From an uncultured Actinomycetes bacterium (lineage in GTDB: Bacteria > Actinomycetota > Acidimicrobiia > Acidimicrobiales > Ilumatobacteraceae), in NCBI GenBank assembly GCA_963847945.1, contig CAWKBX010000009.1, forward strand, positions 583,915-647,914: a stretch of DNA of 64,000 nucleotides. Direction: 5' to 3'. The position numbers were made by a program, and so were the translations under genes. Shown one piece after another: positions 4,070-40,528 of this stretch (the stretch's first letter is position 1; the number at the start of each line of letters is the position of its first letter). The notes under the pieces are model-generated. The model was not told where the DNA came from and did not search any database. It saw only the letters and a program-made list of their open reading frames with translations.

Positions 4070-4860
4070 CGTCCTACATAGCGGGCTGGCCGCTTCTCGA
4101 GGAAGGCCCGGGCGCCCTCGCGGTGATCTTCGGTTTGGAACAGCTCGCCCAACGTCGACGACACCCACACACCCAGCGACTTCCACTCCGGGTCGACGGC
4201 TCGCCGCAGTCCGGCCTTCAGTCGTTGCACCGCCAGCGGGGGATTCGAGGCGATCCGCCCCGCCACGGCCATCGCCGTGTCGAGGAGATCGTCATGCAGC
4301 ACGACTCGCGACACCAGACCCATCGACAAGGCGGTCGCGGCGTCGATCACCTCACCGGTGAACAGCAGCTCGGCGGCGCGCTCGCGCCCGACTAGTTGAG
4401 CAAGTCGCCCCAGCCCGGCAACATCGGACACCAGCCCGCGGAGCACGAACAATTCTCCAAACCTCGCCCGTTCACTGGCGACGCGGATGTCGGCCATCAA
4501 GGCCAGTTCCATACCCCAACCCACCGCGGAGCCATTGACGGCGGCGATGATCGGCACATCAGTGTGCAACAGCGCGTCGGCCGCCGGAGTCAGCTGCGGG
4601 TGGCGACCGGCGGTCGACATCACCGGGGTGTGCCCCTCGGCCCCGCCACCCATCACTTGGCGGACGTCGTCCCCTGAACAGAACGCCGGATCAACACCGG
4701 TGATGATCAAGCATCGAGCCGTGGTGGTTCGCACCAATCGCTCAAGTTCCGCATACATCGCGTGAGTGAGCGCGTTGCGGGTGGCCGGACGGTTGAGAGT
4801 GATCAGCCCGACGTGCTCACGCTCGTCGTAGACCACGTCGTCGACGGCCGATTTGCTCAA
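4066..4860 (-). CDS. enoyl-CoA hydratase/crotonase family protein
   Basis: Crotonase motifs ITLNRPATRNAL, AFCSGDDV, AAVNGSAVGWGMELALMADIRVA; a TTG start overlaps the mreB stop (TTGA). Confidence 0.8.
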   Translation of the reverse strand: MSKSAVDDVVYDEREHVGLITLNRPATRNALTHAMYAELERLVRTTTARCLIITGVDPAFCSGDDVRQVMGGGAEGHTPVMSTAGRHPQLTPAADALLHTDVPIIAAVNGSAVGWGMELALMADIRVASERARFGELFVLRGLVSDVAGLGRLAQLVGRERAAELLFTGEVIDAATALSMGLVSRVVLHDDLLDTAMAVAGRIASNPPLAVQRLKAGLRRAVDPEWKSLGVWVSSTLGELFQTEDHREGARAFLEKRPARYVGR

Positions 4861-7915: not shown

Positions 7916-8905
7916 CTAGCGACGCGCTCGACGAGCGACCCTGACGACACCCAATGCGACGGCCACGACGCCGCCGACCATGGCGCCGAGGGCCAACTCC
8001 TGCTTGCGCTGCGGGGTCAACATCGTCCACCACCGGGCCTCGGTGCCCTCGACGTAGGCCTGCTCGTTGGTCACGGTCGGCCGCCATCCAGCCGCCTTCA
8101 AGCGGTCGTTGGCGACGAGCCACGGGTGTTGGGCGAACGGCCAGAGTCCGGGTGGAATCGGCCCGCGTTGAAACCGCCAGCGGACGTCGACCGCCGCTTC
8201 GATCAGCCACGCCGGCAGCCGGATCCGCGGGGGCGTTCCCGCCAGCGCTCGCACGGTCTCACCGGCCACCCAACCATCAGGAGCCACATTGAACACCCCG
8301 TCAAGGTGCTGGTCATGGCCCAGAACGACGGCGGAGGCCAGATCGTCGAAATGCAGGAACTGGGCCGGTGGATCCTCCTCGTCGAGCCTCGCTCCGATCC
8401 CGGCGGCCAGGGCGCGGACCACGCTGCTCGTGCCGTCGGCGGCCAACGTCAGCACGGGGCGTAGCACCGTCACGGTTCGTCCCGGAACCGCCAGGCGCCA
8501 GGCATCGACCATCTGCTCGACCTGGGCGAGTTGATGGGCGAACCCGAAGCTGACGTCGGCCCGCAGCGGAGCCTCCTCGGTCAACGGAACCGGATTGTTC
8601 GGCCAGGCGCCATAGACCATGGCCGACGACAGCAGCACCATGTGGGTAACCCGGGCGGCAGCCGGATCGGCCAGCACCTGTTCGGTGACTCGCAGGGCGT
8701 TCGCGCCACGTTCGGCCAGCGTGTCGTGGTCGCCGGCGGTCAAATGAAGCAGGCAATCCGCGTCGACGTAGCGATCGGACCGTCGCGATCGATGCAGCCG
8801 CCGATCAGACTCGATGGTGACCACGTCGAGGTCGGCTCGATCGGCCAACAACTTCAGCACCCGGGTACCCAGCGCCCCCGCGGCTCCGGTCACGAGCGTG
8901 GTCAC
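7916..8905 (-). CDS. NAD-dependent epimerase/dehydratase family protein
   Basis: Rossmann motif VTTLVTGAAGALG; the GTG start at 8905 lies 20-25 nt downstream of the intron 3' end. The longer ORF reaching 9142 runs through intron RNA. Confidence 0.75.
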   Translation of the reverse strand: MTTLVTGAAGALGTRVLKLLADRADLDVVTIESDRRLHRSRRSDRYVDADCLLHLTAGDHDTLAERGANALRVTEQVLADPAAARVTHMVLLSSAMVYGAWPNNPVPLTEEAPLRADVSFGFAHQLAQVEQMVDAWRLAVPGRTVTVLRPVLTLAADGTSSVVRALAAGIGARLDEEDPPAQFLHFDDLASAVVLGHDQHLDGVFNVAPDGWVAGETVRALAGTPPRIRLPAWLIEAAVDVRWRFQRGPIPPGLWPFAQHPWLVANDRLKAAGWRPTVTNEQAYVEGTEARWWTMLTPQRKQELALGAMVGGVVAVALGVVRVARRARR

Positions 8906-8977
8906 TGGTCCGCACTCCGGTTCATTGGTAGTCAGGGGCGCGGTGCTGTTGCCAGCCCGTTTCCCCATCCCCCTTTC

Positions 8978-9010
8978 AATCCGTGCGTGCGGTTTTCCCG
9001 CACACGGCTT
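8978..9010 (-). ncRNA. group II intron domain V (catalytic hairpin)
   Basis: The minus strand reads AAGCCGUGUGCGGGAAAACCGCACGCACGGAUU: an AGC triad, 2-nt bulge and GAAA-type loop, matching the DV consensus GAGCCGUAUGCG..CGCACGUACGGUUC. Confidence 0.7.
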
Positions 9011-9032
9011 ACCTTCGTGCTTCTGGACATTG

Positions 9033-10373
9033 TTACGCGGCCTTCGGGTAGCGGATGGTGCCCATGAGTTGATGCAGGCCCTGGTCATGGAACCAGGCGG
9101 GTGTCCAGCGGGCTGCTTGACCAGCACGTAGGTTGCGCCCACGCTTCTTGATCAACAACCGTTTCAGCCGCCACACGACATGGCGATCGAGCTGCACGAA
9201 CTTGTTGGCTGCGTTCCCAGTCCGAAAGTAGTTGCCCCATCCCCGAAGGAACAGGTTCAACTCGCCGATGACGACCGGCAGGTCAGCACCGACACGTTTC
9301 CGACCGGTCAGGTCCTTGATCCGTTGGCGTGCCCGTTTCATGCTCCGAGCCGATGGCCAGCGGTGCAGGTAGTAACGCACGATGCGTTGCTGCTCCCACA
9401 AGCGTCCCGACATCCGAGCCCGAAAATGGCAACCCAGGAAATCGAACCCTTCACACCCCTCCCGAAGATCGACCACACGGGTCTTGTCCGGGTGAAGTTC
9501 CAGACCGAGTTCACCCATCATCTCGACAGCGAGACGATGCGCGTGTTCGGCCTGATCCCGGGTCTCACAGAGCACCACGAAGTCATCCGCATAACGGACA
9601 AGCTTCCCGGTTCCATGCTCGGCCCAAGCGTGATCAAACGCATCCAAGAAGATGTTGGCCAACAACGGTGAGATCACCCCACCCTGGGGGGTGCCCGTGA
9701 CCGTCGTCTGGTGCACCCCATCGACCAACACCCCAGCCGTCAACCACTGACGGACCAGTTTGAGCACCCGACGATCCGACACCCGACGCTCAACAAGCGC
9801 CATCAGCCGAACATGATCGATCGACCCGAAGAAATCTCGGATATCGGCCTCGAAGACGAACTGGTCGCCTTTCGGGAACGCCACCCTGATCGCTTCCATC
9901 GCATCAGTGGCGGAACGTTTCGGGCGGAACCCGAAACTACACGCCAAGAAATCGGCCTCGAACAACGGCTCAAGAACGATCTTGACGGCCTGCTGCGCCA
10001 CCCGATCACGAACAGTCGGGATACCCAACGGCCGTTTACGGCCATCCGGCTTCGGTATCTCCACCCGCCGCACCGGCAACGGGTAATACCTCCCTGCACG
10101 AAGATCCCCAGCCAACTCATCCAACATTCGATGAACCCCGGAATCCTCAACCGCTGCCACCGTGACCTTGTCGATCCCGGCAGCACCACGATTCTCACGC
10201 ACACGTTCCCACGCCTCCCACAAGACGTCACTCCTGTGAACACGGTCAAACAGGGCATGGAAACGCCTACCCTCAGACTGCTTGGCAGCAGCCCATAGCC
10301 GATTCTGAAGTTGTCGCACTTTCACCGGAGCCTTACGACCCCGAGGGTGGTTGGACCGGGCGGTCCCGGTCAT
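9033..10373 (-). CDS. group II intron-encoded reverse transcriptase/maturase
   Basis: RT motifs 0-7 (RPLGIPTVRDRVAQQA, FGFRP, GTPQGGVISPLLANIFL, YADDFVV) plus a maturase X domain; the start is taken at MTGTARSN. Confidence 0.9.
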   Translation of the reverse strand: MTGTARSNHPRGRKAPVKVRQLQNRLWAAAKQSEGRRFHALFDRVHRSDVLWEAWERVRENRGAAGIDKVTVAAVEDSGVHRMLDELAGDLRAGRYYPLPVRRVEIPKPDGRKRPLGIPTVRDRVAQQAVKIVLEPLFEADFLACSFGFRPKRSATDAMEAIRVAFPKGDQFVFEADIRDFFGSIDHVRLMALVERRVSDRRVLKLVRQWLTAGVLVDGVHQTTVTGTPQGGVISPLLANIFLDAFDHAWAEHGTGKLVRYADDFVVLCETRDQAEHAHRLAVEMMGELGLELHPDKTRVVDLREGCEGFDFLGCHFRARMSGRLWEQQRIVRYYLHRWPSARSMKRARQRIKDLTGRKRVGADLPVVIGELNLFLRGWGNYFRTGNAANKFVQLDRHVVWRLKRLLIKKRGRNLRAGQAARWTPAWFHDQGLHQLMGTIRYPKAA

Positions 10374-27779: not shown

Positions 27780-29795
27780 TCAGCTCGCGCGGCGAGTCTG
27801 TGACAGGTTGCGGCGATGCTCGATGAAGTCGACGAGCACATAGTCGCCGAGGTTCTCGGGGGTGGTAAAAAACGCCCGACCGCGGTTCATCGAGGTCAGC
27901 CTCTCGATGAACGATTTCAGGTAGCTGTTGGCGTCGAGCATGAAGGTGTTGATCCGGATGCCCTCGCGAGTCGCCTTCATCACCTCGCGCAACGTCTCGG
28001 TGATCGTCTCGGGGATCGGCGGGTAGTTGAAGAACACTTCGCCGTTCGGCTCGATGTGGGCGGTCGGCTCGCCATCGGTGATCATGATGATCTGCTTGGT
28101 ACCGGTCTGCTTGGCGAGCAACTGGCGAGACAGCAGAAAGCCGTGCTGCATGTTCGTGCCGTAGTCGAAGTCCCACGACACCTCGGGCAGCTGATGCGGC
28201 TCGATCACCCGGGCGACCTTCGAGAACCCGACGATGCCGAGATAGTCACGAGGAAACTGTGATGAAATCAGCGAATGCAGGGCCATCGCCACCTTCTTGG
28301 CCGGCAGAAAGTTCTCCCGCATCGGCATCGACAGTGACAGGTCGAGCATCAACACCGTCGACGAACGGGTCATCACCTCGGTGCGCTCGATCTCGAAGTC
28401 GTCGGGGGTCAACCGCACCGGAGTGCCTTGGCCCTGCCTGCGCAGTGCGTTACGGATGGTGCGCTGCAGATCGAGATTGAACGGGTCGCCGTATTCGTAG
28501 ACCTTCGACTCGTAGGCGCGCTCGTGTCCAATGCCCTGGCGGTCGATCTGATGTTGCCCGGCGTGGTCTTTCGAAAGCTTCGAGAACAGCTCGCGCAGCG
28601 CGTTCGAGCCGATCTTGCGCAGGCCTTTGGGGGTGAGTTCCAGCTTGCCCTCACGGGAGTCGATCAGCCCGGCATCTTGCAGTTGCTTGGTCAGTTGCGC
28701 CAACCGCTGCAACGAGTCGGCGGTGTGATCGCCGAGCAGATCGCGGACGCGGTCGATATCGGCCTCGGCGAGGGCGCCCGGGTTGGTGGCCCCCCGCAGC
28801 AGATTCTCGAGCTGGTCGAGGTCGCCAAGGTCTTGCATGGCCTGCAGCGACTCGTTGAACCCCATCGGGTTCGAGCCCCGCATGTTCTGCGACTTCTGCC
28901 AGCCCATCTGCGGATACATCGACTGCAAGTGCCGGCCGAGCTGGGAAGCCTGGAAGCTGAGATCCATGTCTTGCATGAGTTGCTCGTTGAGCTGCTGCAG
29001 CTGGGAGCGCTGCTCGGGCGTCATCGAGTTCATCATCTGTTCCATCGCCGCCATCTGCCGGGCGATCGATTCGAGCAGCTCATCGAGGGTTTGGGGATTG
29101 TCGGGGAAGAAGTCACCGAAGTTCTCCATGAACTCCTCGAACTTCGGATCCTGCCCTGCTTCGCGCTTTTCGATCATCTGATTGAGCGCGGCCATCATGT
29201 CCTTCATTCGGGCCATTTGCTCGGGCGAGGTGTTCTGCACCCCCTCGGTGACCTGGTCGACGAACTGCTGCATCAACTGCTCGCGCAGCTTGTCCATCAG
29301 CTCGTCGAAGCGGCGCTGCGATTCGTCGGAGGCAAAGTCGTAGCTCTGCAGCTCCCGCACCTGGCCGGCGAGATCGTTGGGCAGCATGTCGAGGCGGAAG
29401 TTGCGTTCCATCGCCGCCTCGTTGGACAACTCGGCGCGGCGCTCATCGCCAGACGCCTCGGCCGCCGCGGTCTGATTCTCGATCTCATGGCGTTCCTCGT
29501 CGATGAGGTCTTTCAGAGCCTCGGCGATCTCGGCATACACCCCGCCGAGGTCGCCCTGCTCCTGGAGTTCCTGGCGCTTCTGGCGCAGCCGCTCCATCAT
29601 CTCGCGCAGTCCCTGCACCTGGTTTCCGTCGCGATCACGCATGCCTTGCTGCAACAGCCGACGCAACGCCGAGTTGAGGTCGCCGTGATAGAGCAGATCA
29701 TCGGTGATCTCGTCGAAGATCCCCTCGGCATCGAGCTCAAAGCCCTGCTGGGAACCATCCCAACGCGAGTACCTAAACCGGGAGACCATGAGCAT
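27780..29795 (-). CDS. vWA domain protein with a long Glu/Gln-rich coiled N-terminal region (M. tuberculosis Rv0959-like)
   Basis: C-terminal vWA with MIDAS motifs (VLMLDLSLSM, IIMITDGEPT); size (671 aa) and composition match the vWA partners of ChlI/MoxR-like ATPases. Confidence 0.8.
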   Translation of the reverse strand: MLMVSRFRYSRWDGSQQGFELDAEGIFDEITDDLLYHGDLNSALRRLLQQGMRDRDGNQVQGLREMMERLRQKRQELQEQGDLGGVYAEIAEALKDLIDEERHEIENQTAAAEASGDERRAELSNEAAMERNFRLDMLPNDLAGQVRELQSYDFASDESQRRFDELMDKLREQLMQQFVDQVTEGVQNTSPEQMARMKDMMAALNQMIEKREAGQDPKFEEFMENFGDFFPDNPQTLDELLESIARQMAAMEQMMNSMTPEQRSQLQQLNEQLMQDMDLSFQASQLGRHLQSMYPQMGWQKSQNMRGSNPMGFNESLQAMQDLGDLDQLENLLRGATNPGALAEADIDRVRDLLGDHTADSLQRLAQLTKQLQDAGLIDSREGKLELTPKGLRKIGSNALRELFSKLSKDHAGQHQIDRQGIGHERAYESKVYEYGDPFNLDLQRTIRNALRRQGQGTPVRLTPDDFEIERTEVMTRSSTVLMLDLSLSMPMRENFLPAKKVAMALHSLISSQFPRDYLGIVGFSKVARVIEPHQLPEVSWDFDYGTNMQHGFLLSRQLLAKQTGTKQIIMITDGEPTAHIEPNGEVFFNYPPIPETITETLREVMKATREGIRINTFMLDANSYLKSFIERLTSMNRGRAFFTTPENLGDYVLVDFIEHRRNLSQTRRAS

Positions 29796-31562: not shown

Positions 31563-32438
31563 TTGAAGTGGATCGTACTGATCCTGCTCGTTGCTGCGAT
31601 TGGGGTCGCGGTGTCGGCATGGTTGAAGAGCAGCCGCCAAACGATCGCGGTCACGTCCCCGGTTGAGCGCATCTTCGTGTACCAGAAACGACTTCGGCAG
31701 ACCGCTCCACTCGGGTTTTTCCACGGCCTGGTCGACGATCCGCTGACCGGTCGGGGGCGCACCGACCCCGGCAAGCAGCACCTCAAGATGGGGATCCACT
31801 CGTTCATCCGCCCGGTCATCGCCGTCAAGTGCTCGTCGGGTCAATACGCGATCACATTCTGGTCCGACGATGAGGTGAGTTGGAAGGCCGCCAAGGGGTC
31901 ACACACGCAGGGTCCGATCCCGGTGAAAACGGCCGACCTCATTCCGGCCAAGGTCGCCCTGCGGGCGTCGTATGCGATTATCGACAGCCCTGATCAGCTG
32001 TTGAAGATTCAGATGCCCGAGGCGTTCGCAGAGCGAGCGATCGCCGACGTCCTGGTCGCCACCCGCGAGGCGATCGGGCGGCGCGACAGCCTCGACTACG
32101 CCACGATCGGCCGCGAAGACTTGTCGGGCGAGCTGTTCGCCGACATCGACGCCCGGTTGAAGAAGCGCGGCCTGGTGTTGCGTGACCTGTGGCTCGGCAA
32201 CATCGAGTTCGATCCGGAAGTGCAGCAGGCGATCAAAAATCGCTTCAATGCCATGACCCTGGCCGACATCCCGCGGATCGCCGCTGGCGGTCAAGCTGTT
32301 GCCAACCGAGTGATCGCCGAGAGCGTGTCACCGCAGCTCATCGAGCTGATCCGCGCCGAGCGATCGGGCAACCCGTGGAACTACTGGGTGGCCCACATGG
32401 CCGAACTCGAAGGCAGCCCCAAGTCGCTCCAACGCTGA
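31563..32438 (+). CDS. SPFH/band-7 (stomatin/prohibitin-like) domain membrane protein
   Basis: N-terminal TM (MKWIVLILLVAAIGVAVSAWL) followed by an SPFH-like core. Confidence 0.65.
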   Translation: MKWIVLILLVAAIGVAVSAWLKSSRQTIAVTSPVERIFVYQKRLRQTAPLGFFHGLVDDPLTGRGRTDPGKQHLKMGIHSFIRPVIAVKCSSGQYAITFWSDDEVSWKAAKGSHTQGPIPVKTADLIPAKVALRASYAIIDSPDQLLKIQMPEAFAERAIADVLVATREAIGRRDSLDYATIGREDLSGELFADIDARLKKRGLVLRDLWLGNIEFDPEVQQAIKNRFNAMTLADIPRIAAGGQAVANRVIAESVSPQLIELIRAERSGNPWNYWVAHMAELEGSPKSLQR

Positions 32439-32545
32439 CAAATCGCTGGCAAATCGGGTCTCTTCCCCGATTTGCCAGCTGTCGTTGTCGTCGATCGTTG
32501 TCGGGAGTCCACGGGCGGAGCCCCCCGTGTCAGGGCCCCGTGTGA

Positions 32546-33986
32546 CTACGCCTTGGCGTGGTAGCCGAGGATCGCCTTGGCCTCGAGGAACTCCATGAGC
32601 CCGTGCTTGCCGAACTCGCGGCCGTTGCCCGACTGCTTGTAGCCGCCGAACAGTGGCGTTCGAGTCGGTGCCGGCACCGTTGAGGTGCACGTTGCCCGAC
32701 CGCATGCGGCGAGCCACCGCGCGGGCCCGGTCGGCGTCGGTCGACGAGACGTAGCCGGCCAGGCCGTAGACGGTGTCGTTGGCGATGCGCACGGCGTCGT
32801 CCTCATCGTCGTAGCCGATGATCGACAGCACCGGGCCGAAGATCTCTTCGCGGGCGATCGTCATGTCGTTGGTGACGTTGGCGAACACCGTCGGCTTGAC
32901 GTAGAAGCCGGCTGTCGAGCCCGTCGGGACGGCCGGGGCCACCGGCGACGAGCGTGGCGCCCTCGTCGATGCCGGTCTGGATGAGCCGCTGGATCTTGTC
33001 GAACTGCAGCCTCGGACGCGACCGGGCCGATGACGGTGCCCTCGGCGTTCGGGGTCGCCGACGGCGATCTTGTCGGCGGCGGCCCCGGCGATCGCGGCGG
33101 CCTCGTCCATCCGGTCGTGGCGGCACCAGCATGCGGGTTCCGGCGTTGCACGACTGGCCCGAGTTGACGCACATCGGCCGACGTCACGGGCGACCACCGC
33201 TGCGAAGTCGACGTCGTCGAGGATGATGTTGGCCGACTTGCCACCGAGTTCCTGCGCGACACGCTTGACGGTCGGGGCGGCGTTGCGGGCAACTTCGATC
33301 CCGGCGCGGGTCGAGCCGGTGAACGAGACCATGTCGACGTCGGGATGCGACGACAGCGCCGCACCGACGGTCGGGCCGTCGCCGTTGACCAGGTTGAACA
33401 CGCCGGCCGGCACGCCGGCCTCGTGCATCACTTCGGCGAAAACGATGGCGTTGAGCGGCGCGACTCTCCGACGGCTTGAGCACCATCGTGCAGCCGGCCG
33501 CGAGCGCCGGGGCGACCTTGGCGGCGATCTGGTTGAGCGGCCAGTTCCACGGCGTGATGAACGCGCAGACCCCGATCGGCTCGTACTCGATGCGGCTGGT
33601 GCCGACGTCTTCGGCGAACTCGAACGCCTCGAGCGCCTTGGCCGTCGCCATGAAGTGGCCGATGCCCGACGGGGCCTGGGCCCGGTTGGCCAGCGAACGT
33701 CGGCGCGCCCATCTCGCAGCTGACCGCGGCGGCGATGTCGCCCATGCGCGCCTTGTAGACCTCGATGATCCGGCCGAGCAGGGCGAGGCGATCTTCACGC
33801 GTCGTCTGCGAGAAGGTGTCGAACGCAGCCTTCGCGGCGGCGACGGCGGCGTCGACATCGGCCTGGTTACCCAGGGCGATGGTGCCGACGACCTGCTCGG
33901 TTGCCGGGTTGACGACGTCGAGCGTGGCGCCGGACGACGGGCTCGACCCACTGGCCGTTGATGTAGAACTTCTGGGCGTTGTCCAT
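32546..33986 (-). pseudogene. NAD(P)-dependent aldehyde dehydrogenase, at least 7 frameshifts
   Basis: A full-length ALDH can be read only by hopping frames (ORFs 33428..34030, 32861..33364, 32803..33174, 32546..32806 and others). Motifs are conserved across the shifts: [52 protein letters not shown]. Confidence 0.85.
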
Positions 33987-34040
33987 GCCCGCAGACTACG
34001 CGCCGGTTCCGGCCGATCCGCACGTGGCACAGGCCCGAGG

Positions 34041-35459
34041 TCAGCTCCGGCTGCGGTATGCCGCCCGGGCGCCGGAGGAATCCTTGTTCAGCCGCTTCGA
34101 CAGGTGCAGCCCCTCGAGGATGAACTCGACGGCGGCAGCAACGGCGGCCGGGGACTCGTCACCGGCGGTCAAGCCGACGACTGCGGGACGCAGGGCCGGG
34201 ATCTGCTCGATGAGCCGGGCGGCGTCGACCGACGAGACGTCTTCGCCGGTGTGGGCGACGATGCCTTCCTCGAACGAGGTGACCACGTCACGAATACCCT
34301 CGGTCGCTACAACATCGCGATAGACGGTGAGGACCGCGCCGCGCAGCATGTTCTCGATGATCGAACCCTCACGGCCGTCTTCCAGCGACTCGATCTCGAC
34401 CTTGCCCGAGGTCGATGCGGGTAGGGCATTGAGATCGGAGATCCGCGGGACGACCTCGCTCTCGCCCGCCCGCAGACCGCGGCGAACGGCGTTGGCGCAG
34501 AGCACCTCGATATTGCTGACCGACAACCGCACCGACACGCCGCTGCGCTGATTGACCTGGCTGCTGGCGCGGGCCATGTGCGAGAAGGTGGCGACGATGC
34601 GCTCCATGTACTCGGGAACGTGGACCTGCACGTTGCCGATGCTCGCCGGACGAGCCTCCTGGCGCATGATCGCGATCTCGGTCGACACGTCGAGCGGATA
34701 GTGGGTGCGGATCTGACTGCCGAAACGATCCTTCAACGGAGTGATGATCCGACCGCGGTTGGTGTAGTCCTCGGGGTTGGCCGAAGCCATCAGCAGCACA
34801 TCGAGCGGCAGCCGGATCTTGTAGCCGCGGATCTGCACGTCGCGCTCCTCGAGCACGTTGAGCAGACCAACCTGGATGCGTTCGGCCAGGTCAGGGATCT
34901 CGTTGATAGCGAAGATGCCGCGGTTGGTGCGGGGTACCAGGCCGTAGTGCAACGTCAGTTCGTCGCTCAGGTAGCGACCCTCGGCGACCTTGATCGGGTC
35001 GACCTCGCCGATCAGGTCGGCGATCGAGGTGTCGGGGGTGGCCAGCTTCTCGCCGAAGCGCTCGTCGCGATGCACCCAGGAGATCGGGGTGTCGTCACCG
35101 TTGTCGGCGACCAGCGCCTTGGCATGGCTCGAAACCGGATTGTATGGGTCGTCGTTGATCTCGCTACCGGCGACGATGGGCATCCATTCGTCGAGCAGGC
35201 CAGTGAGGGAGCGGATCATGCGGGTCTTGGCCTGGCCGCGTTCGCCGAGGAAGATCACGTCGTGACCGGCGAGGATCGCGTTCTCGAGTTGTGGCATGAC
35301 GGTGTCTTCGTAGCCGAGCACGCCCTCGAACAGCGGGTGCCCGGCGGCGATGCGAACGACCGCGTTGCGACGGAGTTCTTCCTTGACGGGCACCGATTGC
35401 CAACCAGATGCACGTAGCGCACCGAGGGTGTTCGGACGGGACTGGTCAGCTTCGGCCAT
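34041..35459 (-). CDS. ChlI/BchI-MoxR-like AAA+ ATPase (Rv0958-like, putative Mg-chelatase-type)
   Basis: Walker [11 protein letters not shown], Walker B/sensor [11 protein letters not shown], arginine finger region [10 protein letters not shown]; 472 aa. Confidence 0.85.
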
Positions 35460-36350
35460 GTGCCGACCATATCCCGAGCGGGTACTGTTCTGCCTACCGA
35501 CACCCCTCTAGATCCGGAGTCCTTCGTGCCGATCGCCCAGCGACCCGTTCTGCCGACCTCTGTCGTCGACGACTTCCAGCAAGACGGAGCGGTGCTCTTG
35601 CGCGGCGTACTCGCCGACGAGTGGCTGGAGAAGCTGTCCACTGGAGTGGAGTACAACCGAACGAACCCGAGCCAGTACGGCTACGGCTACACCAAGCCCG
35701 GATCGTCGGTTGGGTTCTGGGCGGACTATGTGACCTGGCAGAACGTGCCGGAGTACCGAGACATCGCCTTCAACAGTGGCCTCGCCGCCCACGCCCGGCA
35801 GTTGATGGGTTCGACGACCAGCCGGTTCTTCCACGAGCACGTACTAGTCAAGGAAGCCGCGACCGCGGAGCGGACGCCGTGGCATCACGATCAGCCGTAC
35901 TACTGCGTGAACGGCGACCAGAACGTCAGCATGTGGGCTCCGCTCGACACCGTTCCGGCTCACTCAGGGATGCGGTTGATCGCCGGTTCGCACCGCTGGA
36001 ACCGGTGGTTCATCCCCCGCAAGTTCATCGATCACACGCCGTACGCCCAGCCGAGCGAGCACTACGAACTGATCCCCGACATCGATGCGATGATCGCGGA
36101 CGACCCATCGCTGCGGGTGCTCTCGTTCGATGTCGAACCGGGTGACGTGGTCGCCTTCCACTACCGCACCCTCCACGATGCTGCGGGGACGACCGAGTTG
36201 GACGGCGGTCGGCGGGTCGTCAGCCTGCGGTGGATCGGCGACGACGCCACCTTCGGTCTACGGCCGTGGCTGCACTCCCCGCCCTTCGAGCAGGCCGACC
36301 TCGAACTCGGCGGCCCCCTCGACGACGACCGCTTCCCCCTGGTCGACTAA
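35460..36350 (+). CDS. phytanoyl-CoA dioxygenase (PhyH) family Fe(II)/2OG oxygenase
   Basis: HHDQPYY (H-x-D), a distal His (FHYRTLHDA) and a double-stranded beta-helix core. The start codon is uncertain: no ATG, so a GTG or TTG within the first ~30 nt. Confidence 0.7.
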   Translation: MPTISRAGTVLPTDTPLDPESFVPIAQRPVLPTSVVDDFQQDGAVLLRGVLADEWLEKLSTGVEYNRTNPSQYGYGYTKPGSSVGFWADYVTWQNVPEYRDIAFNSGLAAHARQLMGSTTSRFFHEHVLVKEAATAERTPWHHDQPYYCVNGDQNVSMWAPLDTVPAHSGMRLIAGSHRWNRWFIPRKFIDHTPYAQPSEHYELIPDIDAMIADDPSLRVLSFDVEPGDVVAFHYRTLHDAAGTTELDGGRRVVSLRWIGDDATFGLRPWLHSPPFEQADLELGGPLDDDRFPLVD

Positions 36351-36359
36351 CCCAACCTG

Positions 36360-36957
36360 CACCACTCCGACTCGACCGACCCCCCGGACTTCAGCCCGGC
36401 AACTCGTCTCGCGCCACCACCGGACGCCACTTTGGAGCACAATCACGCTCCCAGCGTGACCGCACTCCCCGAAACCCGAAACCCGAGCCCCCGCGGCTGG
36501 GCGGGGCGGCGACTTGGCACTGGGCGATCTCGGATATGGTCCCAGGCGTGCAGCGGCGTGACCTCGAGAATGGACTGCCAGCCCCCACCGGGGGTTGGCG
36601 AGCCTGCCCCGGGGCTCCCCCGGGGTGTCAAGTGTTGCTTGAGCATTCCATCGCCGGCGCGAGACGGTGCTGGCGCACCGCACCACGCCCGCACGGCCAG
36701 TACAGTCGAGGCGCGTCGCTGCACCCATGAATCGGCGGGATCAGATCATCACCCAGGCGGTCGCCGGAGCGTTTCTCGCCGGCGAGTGGGAGCCACGGCT
36801 GATGGTTCGCCGTGCCGGCCGAGCGCTGGGCGATCGCCGGACCACCTGGTTGACGCCGCTCGCCACGTTGGTCGTCCACGCCTTTCCCATTGCCCCTCAC
36901 GACGCTCCTCGCGAGTTGGGTGCCGTCATCTGGGCGAGTGGAATCATCCAGGAACAA
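36360..36957 (+). ncRNA. candidate retron msr/msd-type non-coding RNA region upstream of the RT (boundaries not determined)
   Basis: About 600 nt without a convincing CDS, carrying several G-rich hairpins (ccccc-acc-ggggg at 36581-36593, ccccggggctcccccgggg, tcaag-tgttg-cttga at 36629-36645, ctggc..gccag at 36669-36700) and a short tandem gaaacccgaaacccga. Position and orientation match a retron ncRNA; a1/a2 repeats could not be assigned by eye. Confidence 0.25.
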
Positions 36958-38082
36958 ATGCGCGCCGACACGATGGCGCTCCGACCGCAGTGGCGAATCC
37001 ACCCCGCTACGGCACCGATTCGAATGAGAGCGACGCCCTGGCCCGTTGCCGAGATCGACTCGCTCGGTGACTTGGCCGAGCATCTCGGGCTCTCCACCGG
37101 GCGCCTCCGGTGGTTCGCTGACGTCCGATCGTGGGAGCGGGCTGTCGGTGTCGAGCCTCTGCGGCAGTACCGCTACCGGTGGCTGCCGTCGTCGAGCGGC
37201 TTTCGGCTGATCGAGGCGCCCAAGGGCACGTTGCGACACATCCAACGAGTGTTGCTCCGCACCATCCTCAACCATGTACCCATCCACGATGCCGCCCACG
37301 GGTTCCATGTCGGCCGATCGATCCACGGCTTCGTCGCCCCACACGTGGGCGCACCGGTGCTGATCAAGGCCGACCTGCGGGCGTTCTTCACCTCGATCAC
37401 GGCCGGACGCGTCTTCGGCCTGTGGCGGCGGATGGGCTACGCGGAGCCGGTCGCCCACGTCTTGACCGGGCTGACCACGAACGCAGTCCCCTCGTCGGTT
37501 CTGCGTCGATCGCCCGCCGCCGATCACCACCTCGCCGCGCTCCTTCGTGGCCCGCACCTCCCGCAGGGAGCCCCGACGTCACCCGCCTTGGCCAATCTGC
37601 TGGCATTTCACCTCGACGTGAGACTCGATGCGATGGCGCGGTCGTTCGGGGCGAACTACACGCGCTATGCCGACGACCTCGCCTTCTCGGGGGCCGCGAC
37701 GCTGGAAAAACGACAGCTCGCCCTGCTGCGGCTGGCCGAGGAGATCGTGCGCGACGAGGGTTTCCGGCTCAACCCGCTCAAGACCGCGGTCGCCGGCCCC
37801 GCACAGCGACATCGACTTGCCGGCATCGTCGTCAACGCTCGACCGAACATCGATCGACGAGAATACGACCAGCTCAAGGCCGAGTTACACGATGCCGTCA
37901 CCAACGGACCGGTCGTCGCCAACCGGCGCGACAACCCGCATTTTCGCGACCACCTGCTCGGCCGCATCGGCTGGGTTGCCGAGCTCAATCCGCCACGGGC
38001 CGAACGACTGGAGGCGATGTTCGACCGCATCACATGGGATACGACGGGAAAACGACGACGGCGTGAGTGTGTGACGCCGTGA
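36958..38082 (+). CDS. retron-type reverse transcriptase
   Basis: Collinear with Ec86-type retron RT: WPVAEIDSLGDLAEHLGLSTGRLRWF; SGFRLIEAPKGTLRHIQRVLLRTIL; VAPHVGA (NAxxH-like); DLRAFFTSI; LPQGAPTSPALANL; YTRYADDLAFS; GFRLNPLKT; HRLAGIVVN (VTG-like). No maturase or endonuclease domains. The start is taken at ATG 36958 (aGGAAcaaATG); the ORF is open back to 36667. Confidence 0.85.
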   Translation: MRADTMALRPQWRIHPATAPIRMRATPWPVAEIDSLGDLAEHLGLSTGRLRWFADVRSWERAVGVEPLRQYRYRWLPSSSGFRLIEAPKGTLRHIQRVLLRTILNHVPIHDAAHGFHVGRSIHGFVAPHVGAPVLIKADLRAFFTSITAGRVFGLWRRMGYAEPVAHVLTGLTTNAVPSSVLRRSPAADHHLAALLRGPHLPQGAPTSPALANLLAFHLDVRLDAMARSFGANYTRYADDLAFSGAATLEKRQLALLRLAEEIVRDEGFRLNPLKTAVAGPAQRHRLAGIVVNARPNIDRREYDQLKAELHDAVTNGPVVANRRDNPHFRDHLLGRIGWVAELNPPRAERLEAMFDRITWDTTGKRRRRECVTP

Positions 38083-38100
38083 GGCAATCGCACACTCACG
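38078..38100. terminator. hairpin between the convergent RT and rpsJ genes (gtgag..ctcac stem)
   Basis: cgtgag-gcaatcgcaca-ctcacg lies in the 44-nt gap between the two stop codons. Confidence 0.35.
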
Positions 38101-38126
38101 CCGACGCGTGAATCAGTGAACCGAAA

Positions 38127-38441
38127 TCAGGCGGACTGAATCTTGATTTCGATGTCGACGCCGGCCGGCAGCTCGATGCGCTGCAGGCTGTCGATGGTCT
38201 TCGGGTTCGGATCGACAATGTCGATCAGGCGCTTGTGAATGCGCATCTCGAAGTGCTCACGGCTGTCCTTGTCCTTGTGCGGCGACCGGATGACCGTATA
38301 ACGGTGCTTGTCGGTCGGCAGCGGGATGGGACCGCGCACCTTGGCGTTGGTACGGGTGACCGTCTCGACGATTTTCTTCGTCGACTGGTCGATGATTTCG
38401 TGATCAAACGCCTTGAGGCGAATACGGATGCTCTGGGCCAT
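38127..38441 (-). CDS. rpsJ: 30S ribosomal protein S10
   Basis: [14 protein letters not shown]...RGPIPLPT...[16 protein letters not shown] is canonical S10. Confidence 0.95.
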
Positions 38442-38458
38442 GTTGTTGTATCAGCCGA

Positions 38459-39643
38459 TCACTTGAGAATCTTGGTGACGCGGCCGGCGCCAACGGTACG
38501 GCCACCCTCACGAATAGCAAACCGCAACTGCTCATCCATCGCGATCGGCTTACCAAGCTCCACGATCATCGTCACGTTGTCACCAGGCATGACCATCTCG
38601 GTCCCCTCCGGCAACTGCACCATCCCCGTCACATCCGTCGTACGGAAGAAGAACTGCGGCCGGTAATTGTTGAAGAACGGCTTATGACGACCACCCTCCT
38701 CCTTGTTCAACACATACACCTGACCCTCAAAATTCGTATGCGGAGTAATACTGCCCGGCTTACACAACACCTGCCCACGCTCAACATCCTCCTTCTTCGT
38801 CCCCCGAAGAAGCGCACCGATGTTGTCGCCCGCCATACCCTCATCAAGCAACTTACGGAACATCTCCACACCCGTACACGTCGTCTTCTGCGTCTTACGC
38901 AACCCAACGATCTCAATCTCATCGCCCGTGTGGACCTTGCCCTGCTCAATCTTGCCCGTGACCACCGTGCCACGACCCGTGATCGTGAACACATCCTCAA
39001 TCGGCATCAAAAACGGCTTATCCAACTCACGCAACGGCTCCGGCACCGACGCATCACACGCCGCCATCAACTCCATGATCTTTTCCTGCCACGCCTCATC
39101 ACCCTCCAACGCCTTCAACGCGCTGACCCGCACCACAGGGCAATCATCACCCGGAAACTCATACTCCGACAGCAACTCGCGAACCTCAAGCTCCACCAGC
39201 TCCAGCAGTTCCTCATCATCGACCATGTCAGCCTTGTTCAACGCCACCACGATGTACGGCACCCCAACCTGACGAGCCAACAACACATGCTCACGCGTCT
39301 GGGGCATCGGACCATCAGTCGCCGCCACCACCAAGATCGCCCCATCAACCTGAGCCGCACCCGTGATCATGTTCTTGATGTAGTCCGCGTGACCCGGCAT
39401 GTCCACATGGGCATAATGGCGATTCACCGTCTCGTACTCGATATGCGCGATCGAGATCGTGATACCACGAGCCTTCTCCTCCGGCGCCTTATCGATCTGA
39501 TCAAACGGCGTGTAATTCGCCAGACCCTTACCCGCCAACGTCTTAGAAATCGCCGCCGTCAACGTCGTCTTACCATGGTCAATATGACCCATAGTGCCGA
39601 TATTCACGTGCGGCTTATTCCGCTCGAACTTTGCCTTGGACAT
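38459..39643 (-). CDS. tuf: elongation factor Tu
   Basis: [26 protein letters not shown], full-length canonical EF-Tu. Confidence 0.97.
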
Positions 39644-40067
39644 TGGACTACTGCTCCGTTTGCGTGATGAGGGGTGTCAAGGATCGGACGCGCTCGGGGG
39701 CTCCCGGGCACAAGGTCGACCATCCTCAGCGCGCCTGCGGGCCGCGCCAAACTCCACGCTCAGGTTCCCGCAACGGGAGGCCTGAGCAGGACTTCGTGGG
39801 TGATCGTGGCCCCATCGTACCCTCACAACGCGGCATCGATCACATGTCGAACGGTCATCTCGGTCGAGTCATGCGGGTGCCGATGAGACGGGTTTCCGGT
39901 CCGCTCATTCCACCCGGCCCGACGGCGCCGGTGACGTCTGCTGCGTCGATGGGTTGGGCACACGGCGATCTGATCGAAACGCCTCAACCCGAGATTCACG
40001 TCGCGGATGATCAGCGCCTTCCACGGATCGCCCATCACACCGAAGGAACCTCGGCAACTACCAGGCG

Positions 40068-40448
40068 ATGATTGACGGGTTGGCTTCGCCGTTCGAATAC
40101 CGATTCCTCGGCGATCATCCGTTGAGCGGCCGACGAACCAGCACCGTCACGATCGATCTATGGTGGCAGCGAATCTTCCGGCTCCTGCCGAACGGGAAGT
40201 TCACGATCCATCAGATCGTCGTGCAGGGCAACCCGTTCAAGACGCGCATCGCCGTGCGGTCGACCATCAGCGCAGCCTTGGCGTCGGGTGACGGGTACTC
40301 CAACGACGTGATGCAGTTCAGGCGGCTCCGGCTCGGCAAGCTCACCCGCATCGAAACGATGGAGGACACCGCCAAGTTCGAGCGCTACCTCACGACGCTC
40401 GACCCTGCCACCCACCCGGACGCCATCGCCCCGCCGATCAACGACTGA
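40068..40448 (+). CDS. hypothetical protein (NTF2/SnoaL-like fold suspected)
   Basis: 126-aa ORF; the pattern and size suggest an NTF2-like protein; weak. Confidence 0.35.
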   Translation: MIDGLASPFEYRFLGDHPLSGRRTSTVTIDLWWQRIFRLLPNGKFTIHQIVVQGNPFKTRIAVRSTISAALASGDGYSNDVMQFRRLRLGKLTRIETMEDTAKFERYLTTLDPATHPDAIAPPIND

Positions 40449-40528
40449 CCCATACTGGTCGGTCGCGCAGCAGTCGGGCCCGTACCCATCTCCCCAGTTG
40501 GTTCCGCTCGGAACCTACGGCCGAGCGA

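What the first reader, a model, noticed from the sequence alone, without database searches (positions are those of the whole stretch)
36351..38082. Retron-type reverse transcriptase with a structured ~600-nt upstream leader, flanked by a PhyH-family dioxygenase and an AAA+ ATPase, with no known retron effector
The RT at 36958..38082 is collinear with Ec86-class retron RTs along its whole length:
- N-terminal region WPV...LSTGRLRWF;
- NAxxH-like VAPH;
- DLRAFF, LPQGAPTSP, YTRYADDLAFS;
- VTG-like AGIVVN.
It has no maturase or endonuclease domain, so it is not a group II or DGR RT. Upstream and co-oriented there is about 600 nt with no convincing CDS. That stretch is full of G-rich hairpins (ccccc-acc-ggggg, ccccgggg..cccgggg, tcaag..cttga, ctggc..gccag) and short tandem motifs (gaaacccgaaacccga; three copies of GCGAGT(T)GGG). 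This is the position and orientation expected for an msr/msd ncRNA. No canonical retron effector is adjacent (ribosyltransferase, TOPRIM, ATPase+HNH, 2TM, cold-shock and so on). The co-oriented upstream gene is a PhyH-type Fe(II)/2OG oxygenase, and a ChlI/MoxR-like AAA+ ATPase is transcribed divergently. An RT-PhyH pairing is not among the retron types I know. This could be an undescribed retron or abortive-infection variant. The locus also converges on tuf-rpsJ.
Basis: partly seen in the sequence, partly recalled or inferred. Interest (0 to 1): 0.8.

Follow-up and report, generated by a model that had tools for sequence, protein, structure and literature searches.

The report
Effector-less clade-11 retron: ncRNA plus RT
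This is a real retron, a reverse transcriptase with its own structured template RNA, but it belongs to an already catalogued, mostly actinobacterial lineage that carries no partner gene, and the neighbouring PhyH oxygenase and AAA+ ATPase are unrelated bystanders.

Summary
The retron call holds; the coordinates and the "new RT-PhyH type" idea do not.

- **RT gene:** it starts at ATG 36727, not 36958, and encodes 451 aa. The first ~110 residues are a conserved N-terminal extension, of which residues 3-83 form a helical domain.
- **Leader:** the "600-nt leader" is a 376-nt intergenic gap. Only 36548-36724 (177 nt) is a conserved structured RNA, preceded by a -10-like TATGGT.
- **RNA anatomy:** it looks like a canonical msr-msd. 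It has a ~19-bp a1/a2 duplex, a near-invariant AG (G36568) directly after a1 that faces G36705, two msr hairpins and an msd stem.
- **Conservation:** a covariance model built from four close relatives finds this RNA directly upstream of the RT in 79 of 84 sources across four phyla. 90% of pair cells are standard pairs, and 51 of 59 pairs show changes on both sides.
- **Partners:** none of 80 related loci has PhyH, the AAA+ ATPase, tuf or rpsJ nearby. No other gene family travels with the RT.
- **Classification:** a profile of the RNA matches the published ncRNAs of Mestre clade-11 retrons (Micromonospora coriariae, E=3e-21; Myxococcus xanthus DZ2). [quoted passage not shown]

It is a new member of a known kind. 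What an effector-less retron does remains unknown.

The parts
36525..36530 (+). -10-like promoter hexamer TATGGT (TANNNT type), 18 nt upstream of a1
   Evidence: Conserved in the 4 close relatives, including L081, which has different flanks. A TANNNT hexamer starts 8-14 nt upstream of the ncRNA model start in 67 of 77 loci, while the rest of the upstream DNA is unrelated. The promoter function is inferred. An E. coli sigma-70 consensus scan finds nothing here.
36548..36724 (+). Retron msr-msd-type non-coding RNA (177 nt), closed by the a1/a2 duplex
   Evidence: 90% mean column identity among 4 relatives, against 72-82% across the blastn alignments that are mostly CDS. z = -5.9 against shuffles. 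The covariance model hits directly upstream of the RT on the same strand in 79 of 84 sources. 90.2% of pair cells are standard pairs against 68.8% shuffled and 35-47% slid, and 51 of 59 pairs change on both sides. An nhmmer profile matches published clade-11 retron ncRNAs.
36548..36567 (+). a1 arm (GTGCAGCGGCGTGACCTCGA), pairs with a2, with one bulged A at 36561
   Evidence: Inverted repeat I1. MFE and consensus folds. Helices 1-2: all 17 modelled pairs show changes on both sides, 88-93% of cells paired. The last two pairs (36566-36567 with 36706-36707) come from the MFE fold only.
36568..36568 (+). Candidate branching (priming) guanosine, the first unpaired base after a1
   Evidence: The 'AG' at this position is at least 97% conserved in 77 sequences (consensus AGC), and it faces G36705 across the end of the duplex. 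The priming role is inferred. It is consistent with clade-11 RT-DNA 5' ends in PMC10849725, supplement 3.
36572..36604 (+). msr hairpin 1 (variable sequence, conserved pairing)
   Evidence: Helices 3-5: 13 of 13 pairs have changes on both sides, 91-94% paired. Compensatory changes are already visible among the 4 close relatives.
36606..36626 (+). msr hairpin 2, GCCCCGGGG-CUC-CCCCGGGGU, nearly invariant in sequence across phyla
   Evidence: Helix 6 is 97.4% paired, and its four loop-proximal G-C pairs never vary in 77 sequences. The same CCGGGG-NNN-CCCCGG hairpin is present in census clade-11 ncRNAs T1823-T1884. Its role as the RT-recognition element is inferred.
36653..36692 (+). msd-type stem-loop (predicted main template of the msDNA)
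   Evidence: Inverted repeat I2. Helices 8-9: 11 of 13 pairs have changes on both sides, 90-95% paired.
36705..36724 (+). Opposing G36705 (predicted first templated base) followed by the a2 arm 36706-36724
   Evidence: 'GU' at 36705-36706 is at least 90% conserved. In the three sequenced clade-11 retrons T1894, T1913 and T1928, the RT-DNA starts opposite a G at or within one base of the start of a2.
36727..38082 (+). Retron reverse transcriptase CDS, 451 aa
   Evidence: P0001 is 100% identical over 451 aa. PADLOC RT_other scores 2.9e-159 and RT_outgroup (retron) 3.1e-150, both covering nearly the whole protein. AF2 model: pLDDT 93.9, pTM 0.89. The best folds are retron RTs.
36727..36975 (+). 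N-terminal five-helix domain (residues 1-83; helices between 3 and 83) specific to this RT lineage; an extended linker follows to about residue 112 (37062)
37195..37794 (+). RVT_1 polymerase core, including the YADD catalytic motif at 37666-37677
   Evidence: Pfam PF00078, E=3e-16, residues 177-376 of the 471-aa ORF. Y314, A315, D316 and D317 are invariant in 78 sequences.
38056..38106 (.). 19-nt inverted repeat spanning the RT stop codon, between the convergent RT and rpsJ genes (terminator-like hairpin)
   Evidence: Arms 38056-38074 and 38088-38106, 89% complementary. The function is inferred, and there is no T-run.

Best explanation
The feature is a self-contained, effector-less retron of the lineage that Mestre et al. 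2020 call RT clade 11.

**Shown here**
- The conserved unit is about 1.56 kb and holds a 177-nt RNA followed, 2 nt later, by a 451-aa RT.
- A TANNNT -10-like hexamer precedes it.
- The RNA has retron msr-msd anatomy, supported by covariation across four phyla.
- The RT is retron-like by sequence and by predicted fold. It has an intact active site and a lineage-specific N-terminal helical domain.
- No neighbouring gene is conserved with it.

**Inferred**
- The hexamer drives transcription that starts at or just before a1.
- The RT binds its own RNA, probably through the near-invariant hairpin 36606-36626.
- It primes from the 2'-OH of G36568.
- It copies the RNA leftwards from G36705 through the msd stem and stops near or in hairpin 2. 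The product would be a branched msDNA of roughly 65-90 nt.

**Open**
What the RT-msDNA complex then does is unknown. With no cis effector, either the complex or the N-terminal domain acts itself, a partner acts in trans, or the element has a non-defence role. PhyH, the AAA+ ATPase, tuf and rpsJ are chromosomal neighbours only.
For: - **RT identity:**
- **True start and conserved N-terminus:**
- **ncRNA:**
  - It is more conserved than the CDS, including in L081, which has different flanks. L081 also has a 26-nt, frame-breaking insertion between a2 and the ATG.
  - Fold z = -5.9.
  - Covariance-model hits in 79 of 84 sources, always just upstream and on the same strand.
  - Covariation statistics.
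  - Conserved AG and opposing GU.
- **Promoter-like hexamer:** 67 of 77 loci.
- **No partner gene:**
  - 0 of 80 loci have homologues of the window's neighbours.
  - No ORF cluster other than the RT occurs in more than 14 of 81 loci.
  - Neighbour orientation is random.
  - 147 immediate neighbours hit 137 different Pfam families, with at most 5 members sharing one.
- **Clade-11 membership:**
  - The ncRNA profile hits census retrons annotated rt/clade 11 with no subtype: T1873 Micromonospora coriariae 3.3e-21, T1823 Arthrobacter 4.4e-15, T1875 Myxococcus xanthus DZ2 2.3e-13, T1840 Nakamurella multipartita 3.5e-13.
  - It does not hit two clade-10-region controls (T1765, T1795), nor T1807, which is itself clade 11 but has a different ncRNA.
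- **Literature:**
  - Some clade-11 retrons yield RT-DNA in E. coli. T1928 gives 2.5x Eco1. RT-DNA was sequenced for T1840, T1894, T1913, T1914, T1925 and T1928 (PMC10849725, supplement 3).
Against: - No msDNA has been shown for this locus or its host.
- In the census, members of the same ncRNA sub-family gave little or no RT-DNA by PAGE in E. coli: T1840 0, T1856 0, T1875 0.02x Eco1.
- Rfam has no match in 34000-40500, even at E<=1.
- The region-X motif is VAPH rather than NAxxH, and region Y is LAG rather than VTG. Only the most conserved residue of each motif is kept.
- The msd stem is short compared with classical retrons.
- I could not run Mestre's own clade-11 HMMs or covariance models. 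That the PADLOC RT_other/RT_outgroup models correspond to clade 11 is my inference.
- The -10 element is a consensus-level inference.
Confidence: 0.85

Rival explanations
1. A new tripartite retron or abortive-infection type in which the co-oriented PhyH Fe(II)/2OG oxygenase, and/or the divergent AAA+ ATPase, is the effector of this RT-ncRNA pair.
For: PhyH is adjacent and co-oriented, and the ALDH-AAA-PhyH-RT-rpsJ order is kept in two relatives with 76-77% identical RTs, L082 and L083.
Against: - No PhyH, AAA+, ALDH, rpsJ or tuf homologue lies within +/-8 kb of the RT in any of 80 related loci.
- L081, with a 68% identical RT, is flanked by NfeD and a methyltransferase.
- Nucleotide conservation with L081 begins at about 36530, by the -10 hexamer. 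The 165 nt after the PhyH stop are hypervariable even between syntenic relatives.
- PhyH and the AAA+ protein have no meaningful PADLOC hit: none for PhyH, and E=0.0026 for AAA+.
- In L083 the AAA+ gene lies about 4 kb from a gene annotated with Rv0959/Mb0984-type domains. This suggests, but was not tested as, a housekeeping actinobacterial pair.
Confidence: 0.03
2. An RT-ncRNA system that does not work as a retron. The RNA would be a scaffold or template for an unbranched or repetitive cDNA, as in the single-gene DRT2 or DRT9 defence systems, so that the cDNA product itself is the effector and no partner protein is needed.
For: - Single RT gene plus ncRNA with no effector, as in those systems.
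- Members of the same ncRNA sub-family gave little or no PAGE-visible RT-DNA in E. coli.
- DRT2 and DRT9 RTs appear among the fold hits, ranks 24, 28 and 45.
Against: - Retron RTs are far better matches by sequence and fold: the top 18 fold hits are all retron RTs, and NCBIfam Drt2 scores 30.9 bits against a 390-bit cut-off.
- The RNA has the retron hallmarks: an a1/a2 duplex closing the RNA, a conserved G at its inner end facing a conserved G, msr hairpins and an msd stem.
- Sequenced RT-DNAs of the sister clade-11 ncRNA family are single msd copies of about 68-100 nt, three of which start next to a2.
Confidence: 0.07
3. The conserved upstream block is not an RNA gene. It would be an N-terminal coding extension of the RT (from GTG 36667 or further upstream), or simply a translational leader.
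For: An ORF is open from GTG 36667. A tblastn search with the 471-aa version aligns from residue 1 in L082 and L083.
Against: - L081 has a 26-nt insertion between the block and the ATG, which breaks the frame.
- The block is more conserved than the CDS, and the substitutions fall as compensatory pairs in stems.
- Alignments across 77 loci contain many indels but keep base pairing through compensatory changes.
- Homologues start at the equivalent ATG.
Confidence: 0.02

Closest known systems
Mestre et al. 2020 RT clade 11 retrons (untyped, stand-alone msr-msd-RT), for example census terminals 1873 (Micromonospora coriariae), 1823 (Arthrobacter sp.), 1840/1841 (Nakamurella) and 1875 (Myxococcus xanthus DZ2)
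   Same: - The ncRNA family is the same: nhmmer E from 3e-21 to 1e-9, with a shared CCGGGG-NNN-CCCCGG hairpin.
- No accessory gene.
- Distribution centred on Actinomycetota, with Myxococcota members. Related loci include Nakamurella, Micromonospora, Arthrobacter, Curtobacterium and Myxococcus.
- The best protein model is an untyped retron RT model.
   Different: - Nothing qualitative.
- This copy comes from an uncultured lineage whose closest labelled relatives are Acidimicrobiales MAGs, only 50-55% identical in the RT.
- I could not place the RT in the original tree or run the original clade11-A/B models.
Clade-11 retrons of the second ncRNA family (census terminals 1894-1928, mostly Rhodococcus and Nocardia)
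   Same: - Same RT clade and same overall RNA plan: a1, GAG, hairpin, an invariant (C/U)(A/G)GGGG-NAA-CCCC(U/G)G hairpin, msd stem, GGUC, a2.
- Experimentally sequenced RT-DNAs of about 68-100 nt; those of T1894, T1913 and T1928 start opposite a G next to a2.
   Different: Only weak or partial sequence matches to the profile built here (E 7e-7 to 1e-3, or none). The hairpin-2 sequence and the msd differ.
Type XIII retrons (clade 10: Mx162, Mx65, Sa163, Ne144)
   Same: The next-best typed RT model (PADLOC RT_XIII, 1.3e-84). These RTs also have N-terminal extensions, and the literature reports partly vertical inheritance.
   Different: - The score is 283 bits against 529 for the best model, and the RT_XIII match starts only at residue 128, so the N-terminal domains do not align.
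- No SWIM/winged-helix or HEAT-repeat partner recurs in the neighbourhoods.
- Census ncRNAs from the neighbouring (clade-10) region of the tree are not matched.
Retron-Eco5 (Ec107) branch of clade 2
   Same: [quoted passage not shown]
   Different: It is a distant RT: PADLOC RT_Ec107-like scores 6e-46. It has no N-terminal domain match, and its hosts differ (Bacillota and Enterobacteria).
Retron-Eco1 (Ec86) RT, the best solved structure
   Same: Fingers-palm-thumb core: sequence E=2.4e-31, and fold E=1.2e-22 with TM 0.79-0.80 over the target.
   Different: Ec86 works with a nucleoside deoxyribosyltransferase-like effector and has no equivalent of residues 1-110. Identity is only 26%.

Membership tests
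Retron (RT + msr-msd ncRNA) | RT groups with retron RTs rather than with group II, G2L, DGR, Abi or UG/DRT RTs | tested here: met
   56 PADLOC hits, and all 25 listed are retron RT models, best 2.9e-159. NCBIfam retron_St85_RT scores 3.4e-45, against group_II_RT_mat 34.8 bits (cut-off 300) and Drt2 30.9 bits (cut-off 390). PDB sequence and fold hits are led by retron RTs. No formal phylogeny was built.
Retron (RT + msr-msd ncRNA) | Region X (NAxxH, H most conserved) between RT2 and RT3, and region Y (VTG, G most conserved) in RT7 | tested here: met
   VAPH with H206 invariant; LAGIVVN with G366 at least 90% and N370 invariant in 78 homologues. The N, V and T positions are not kept, so only the core residues match. 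Motif definitions are from PMC7736814.
Retron (RT + msr-msd ncRNA) | Adjacent co-oriented ncRNA closed by a1/a2 inverted repeats, with msr hairpins and an msd stem-loop | tested here: met
Retron (RT + msr-msd ncRNA) | Conserved priming G at the inner end of a1, facing a G at the inner end of a2 | tested here: met
   G36568 (the AG is at least 97% conserved) faces G36705 (at least 90%) in the 77-sequence alignment and the MFE fold. The chemistry was not tested.
Retron (RT + msr-msd ncRNA) | Production of 2'-5' branched msDNA | not testable with these tools
   Only indirect evidence: sequenced RT-DNA from other clade-11 retrons expressed in E. coli (PMC10849725, supplement 3).
Retron (RT + msr-msd ncRNA) | Third component: an associated effector gene or an effector domain fused to the RT (the tripartite definition) | tested here: not met
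   No conserved neighbour. The only extra domain is an N-terminal helical bundle with no recognisable fold. The literature accepts stand-alone cassettes in clades 2 and 11.
Mestre clade 11 stand-alone retron | ncRNA belongs to one of the clade-11 msr-msd families | tested here: met
   A profile of the 77 ncRNAs hits 11 of the 14 census ncRNAs tested that are annotated rt/clade 11 (6 at E<=1e-9). It does not hit T1765 or T1795 from the neighbouring clade, or T1807 (clade 11, different ncRNA). The original clade11-A/B covariance models were not available.
Mestre clade 11 stand-alone retron | RT placed in clade 11 of the reference phylogeny | not tested
   The reference sequences and tree (supplement of PMC7736814) are not held. 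Indirect support comes from the full-length match to untyped PADLOC retron RT models and the overlap of host genera.
Mestre clade 11 stand-alone retron | No specifically associated protein; mainly actinobacterial hosts | tested here: met
   At least 585 species genomes encode relatives, mostly Actinomycetota, with some Myxococcota, Planctomycetota and Acidobacteriota.
Type XIII retron | Linked SWIM/winged-helix protein, usually with a HEAT/ARM-repeat protein | tested here: not met
   No recurrent neighbour family in 80 loci. The RT_XIII model is only second-tier and does not cover the N-terminus.
Hypothetical RT-PhyH (or RT-AAA+) retron type | The partner gene co-travels with the RT clade | tested here: not met
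   0 of 80 loci. The partner is lost already at 68% RT identity.
Rfam RNA families (including any retron msr model) | Covariance-model match at or near the gathering score | tested here: not met
   No Rfam 15 match in 34000-40500, even at E<=1.

The most novel reading that the evidence does not exclude
The clade lacks any cis effector, yet it is kept in hundreds of species among housekeeping genes, together with a lineage-specific N-terminal domain of no recognisable fold. One reading is that the RT-msDNA complex, or the N-terminal domain, is itself the functional output. That would make it a one-protein retron acting without a toxin partner, or a domesticated retron with a cellular, non-defence role. 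Mestre et al. already raised this possibility as speculation. Nothing here tests it.
Probability: 0.3. Interest if true: 0.6.

Novelty: new member of a known kind. Interest (0 to 1): 0.3.

Why it matters
For this locus, the result removes a false lead. There is no PhyH- or AAA+-linked retron type, and the element fits a catalogued lineage.

The lineage itself remains an open problem. Current retron models need an effector that the RT-msDNA complex holds in check, and clade 11 has none.

This work adds several usable facts:
- The true gene start and the precise RNA boundaries.
- A candidate priming G and a candidate first templated base.
- A promoter-like element conserved in position.
- The N-terminal extension (residues 1-110), whose helical part (3-83) has no recognisable fold, is a signature of the lineage.
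- The unit sits in unrelated housekeeping contexts, with no integrase, no flanking repeats and no defence-island signal.

These make the clade a tractable test case for what an effector-less retron does.

Tried and rejected
1. **Rfam scan** of 34000-40500 at E<=1: no hit.
2. **E. coli-type sigma-70 scan** of 36300-38200: no site. It was replaced by a positional TANNNT count.
4. **N-terminal domain in other architectures:** of 689 representatives, the best 150 are all collinear with the RT. Most are truncated metagenome ORFs. Unaligned tails in a few (for example P0211 and P0168) were not resolved.
5. **Target-site duplications** between the 90 nt upstream of the RNA and the 125 nt after the stop: the longest shared words are no longer than in shuffled controls.
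6. **Repeated element in the spacer:** the CAYWTTGGAGCRC motif occurs once in the window, as expected by chance.
7. **Organism identification:** The host is therefore only inferred to be an uncultured actinomycetote, probably Acidimicrobiia-like.
8. **Supplement of Mestre 2020:** not held, so the clade-11 reference RTs and covariance models could not be used.
9. **Neighbour gene calling:** this used a home-made GC3-based ORF picker. It is rough, and it mishandled three loci (L008, L017, L043) and the ALDH region of the window. The conclusion also rests on the tblastn search and on the public gene calls.
Full report
**1. What is at the coordinates**

The only long high-GC3 ORF on the plus strand runs from 36667 to 38082. 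Its product matches Pfam RVT_1 (E=3e-16) only over residues 177-376. Two PADLOC family models cover almost the whole protein, N-terminus included:
- RT_other, 2.9e-159, residues 14-463.
- RT_outgroup ("retron"), 3.1e-150, residues 29-457.

A public protein, P0001, is 100% identical and 451 aa long, which corresponds to the ATG at 36727. In alignments of 33 and 78 homologues, the first ~110 residues are conserved: W21 is invariant, and A15, F16, G19, R29 and W41 are each at least 90% conserved.

The non-coding gap after the PhyH stop is 376 nt, not about 600. The three "GCGAGT(T)GGG" copies lie inside the coding sequence.

**2. The RT is a retron RT**

- All 25 listed PADLOC hits are retron RT models.
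- NCBIfam gives retron_St85_RT 3.4e-45. Group II RT/maturase (34.8 bits, cut-off 300) and Drt2 (30.9 bits, cut-off 390) fail.
- The best solved relatives by sequence are Ec86 (2.4e-31), then Ec78, Ec67 and Ec83.
- An AlphaFold model built from 78 homologues has pLDDT 93.9 and pTM 0.89. Its 18 best Foldseek hits in the PDB are all retron RTs (7v9x_A, E=1.2e-22, TM 0.79). They rank ahead of group II, G2L4, DRT2, DGR and DRT9 RTs.
- YADD, the DLxxFF aspartate, the H of region X (VAPH, H206) and N370 of region Y are invariant; the G of region Y (LAG, G366) is at least 90% conserved.

**3. The upstream RNA**

Three relatives with 68-77% identical RTs were fetched. L082 and L083 are syntenic with the window. 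L081 has entirely different flanks, with NfeD upstream and a methyltransferase downstream.

In all three, nucleotide similarity to the window begins at about 36516-36530 and runs into the RT gene. The roughly 200 nt before the ATG are better conserved than the coding sequence: 90% mean column identity against 72-82%. L081 also carries a 26-nt insertion between this block and the ATG, so the block is not coding.

The first 165 nt after PhyH are unrelated even between syntenic relatives. L082 has a (GACACC)n array there.

The block folds as follows:
- **a1/a2 duplex:** 36548-36567 pairs with 36706-36724, with one bulge.
- **Hairpin 1:** 36572-36604.
- **Hairpin 2:** 36606-36626, GCCCCGGGG-CUC-CCCCGGGGU.
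- **msd-type stem:** 36653-36692.

The MFE is -110.9 kcal/mol against -86.3 +/- 4.2 for shuffles, z = -5.9.

**4. Breadth and covariation**

A scan of one genome per species found at least 585 species with relatives. The 80 best loci were kept. They are mostly Actinomycetota, with some Myxococcota, Planctomycetota and Acidobacteriota.

A covariance model built from only the four close sequences gave these results:

| Outcome | Sources |
|---|---|
| Full-length match, same strand, directly upstream of the RT | 77 of 81 sources searched |
| Same, found only with filters off | 2 more (L044, L069) |
| Cut by a contig end | L023, L043 |
| Copy on the opposite strand | L033 |
| No convincing hit | L039, L054 |

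On the 77-sequence alignment:
- 90.2% of pair cells are standard pairs, against 68.8% in column shuffles and 35-47% with the partner slid by 1-3 columns.
- 51 of 59 pairs show changes on both sides.
- 821 cells have a change on both sides, against 226 +/- 12 in shuffles.
- Helices 7 and 10 are weak (53% and 76% paired). The window's tcaag..cttga hairpin belongs to helix 7.

This alignment was fitted to the model, which flatters the numbers. The slid controls and the compensatory changes in the independent MAFFT/RNAalifold run point the same way.

The consensus keeps an "AG" immediately after a1 in at least 97% of sequences (window G36568; consensus AGC). It keeps a "GU" at the inner end of a2 in at least 90% (G36705). 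The two Gs face each other across the end of the duplex, as in canonical retrons (feature described in PMC7736814).

A TANNNT hexamer starts 8-14 nt upstream of the model start in 67 of 77 loci, while the remaining upstream DNA is unrelated. In the window it is TATGGT, 36525-36530. I read this as the element's own promoter. That is an inference.

**5. No partner gene**

- A tblastn search with the window's PhyH, AAA+, ALDH, rpsJ, tuf and three other neighbours found nothing in any of the 80 loci.
- All-against-all clustering of ORFs in the loci gave no family other than the RT in more than 14 of 81 loci, and those families sit at variable positions.
- Upstream neighbours are 40 co-oriented and 35 opposed. 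Downstream neighbours are 37 and 40.
- The 147 immediate neighbours hit 137 different Pfam families. The most frequent, Pyr_redox_2, occurs in 5. They are ordinary metabolic, transport and regulatory genes, with no enrichment of defence or mobile-element families.
- Synteny persists only within narrow groups: window/L082/L083; three Nocardioides loci; the Dactylosporangium loci (L049 with L041 upstream and with L058 downstream).
- No flanking direct repeats exceed the shuffled expectation.

**6. The N-terminal domain**

Residues 3-83 form five helices, followed by an extended linker to about residue 112. The domain-only model has pLDDT 90.9.

The PADLOC RT_XIII model aligns only from residue 128 onwards. 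The domain is therefore a signature of this lineage. Its role is unknown.

**7. Comparison with what is known**

Mestre et al. 2020 (PMC7736814) divide retron RTs into 11 clades. [quoted passage not shown] The authors suggest that such retrons may be vertically inherited and "domesticated".

A 2026 preprint (10.64898/2026.05.14.725207) uses the two clade-11 ncRNA models A and B. It gives the lineage low novelty priority.

The retron census (PMC10849725) lists terminals 1807-1928 as rt/clade 11 with a blank subtype and prints their ncRNAs. An nhmmer profile of my 77 ncRNAs gave these hits:

| Census terminal | Host | E-value |
|---|---|---|
| T1873 | Micromonospora coriariae | 3.3e-21, near full length |
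| T1823 | Arthrobacter sp. | 4.4e-15 |
| T1875 | Myxococcus xanthus DZ2 | 2.3e-13 |
| T1840 | Nakamurella multipartita | 3.5e-13 |
| T1841 | Nakamurella panacisegetis | 2.6e-11 |
| T1856 | Blastococcus sp. | 1.1e-9 |
| T1894-1928 group (Rhodococcus-type family) | | weak or partial, or none |
| T1807, T1795, T1765 | | none |

This is a direct, though sequence-only, test of membership, and it is met.

In the census, clade-11 retrons expressed in E. coli gave RT-DNA ranging from none to 2.5x Eco1. Members of this window's ncRNA sub-family were poor producers: T1840 and T1856 gave 0 by PAGE, and T1875 gave 0.02x.

In T1894, T1913 and T1928, the sequenced RT-DNA starts opposite a G at or within one base of the start of a2. 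These products are about 68-80 nt long, and the other sequenced clade-11 RT-DNAs range up to about 140 nt. By analogy, I predict that the window's msDNA starts opposite G36705 and spans roughly 65-90 nt.

The printed T1840 RT-DNA begins with a stretch identical to its a1 end. This may reflect the RNA-DNA junction at the GAG. I treat that reading as suggestive only.

**8. Verdict**

- **Observation:** partly confirmed. The RT and a structured RNA are real, but the coordinates and several of the listed motifs are wrong.
- **Interpretation:** partly supported. It is a retron with an msr-msd RNA and no canonical effector. It is not a new RT-PhyH or RT-AAA+ type.
- **Classification:** a new member of Mestre clade 11.
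- **Mechanism:**
  - Shown: the anatomy, the conservation and the lack of partners.
  - Inferred: the promoter, priming at G36568, the template extent and msDNA production in the host.
  - Unknown: the biological function.
- **Interest:** low to moderate. The locus is ordinary for its lineage, but the lineage is an unsolved case of a retron without an effector.

Noticed in passing
L033:7754-7928 (RT at 8001-9317, plus strand): In this Solirubrobacterales MAG, the ncRNA matches the model strongly (57.4 bits) but on the strand opposite to the RT, directly upstream of it. It is the only such case among 84 sources. It could be a real inversion or an assembly artefact.
   Followed up: partly
window 32328-34030 (minus strand): The aldehyde dehydrogenase gene appears split over several reading frames (ORFs 33428-34030, 32328-33431 and 32546-32806). 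The syntenic relatives L082 and L083 carry an intact 477-aa Aldedh gene. This could be a frameshift, a pseudogene or a sequencing error.
   Followed up: no
window 38127-39643 (minus strand): tuf and rpsJ form an isolated pair. rpsJ is followed by the convergent RT rather than by rplC and the rest of the S10 operon, and no fusA lies upstream of tuf. L082 also has the RT converging on rpsJ.
   Followed up: no
L082:~4640-4745, aligned with window ~36470-36490: The spacer between PhyH and the retron promoter is hypervariable. L082 has about 12 tandem GACACC units where the window has gaaacccgaaacccga.
   Followed up: no
window 36434-36468: A 16-nt imperfect inverted repeat (GGAGCACAATCACGCT / AGCGTGACCGCACTCC) lies about 85 nt after the PhyH stop, and L082 partly shares it. 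It may be the PhyH terminator. Its TTGGAGC motif occurs only once in the window.
   Followed up: partly
window 27780-29795 and 34041-35459; L083:1-773: In L083, a gene about 4 kb from the syntenic AAA+ gene is annotated with Rv0959/Mb0984-type domains. The window has a 671-aa ORF at the corresponding position. This may be a housekeeping Rv0958/Rv0959-type MoxR-vWA pair unrelated to the RT. I did not test it.
   Followed up: no
L040, L060, L064; census terminal 1875: Myxococcus, Corallococcus and Pyxidicoccus genomes carry members of this effector-less lineage. By my own knowledge, these hosts also carry the classical type XIII retrons Mx162 and Mx65. M. xanthus would therefore be a genetically tractable host for testing the clade's function.
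   Followed up: no
proteins P0211 (576 aa) and P0168 (539 aa): A few proteins with the N-terminal domain have 150-220 residues at the C-terminus that do not align to this RT. These could be frameshifts, or alternative C-terminal regions or fusions within the lineage.
   Followed up: no
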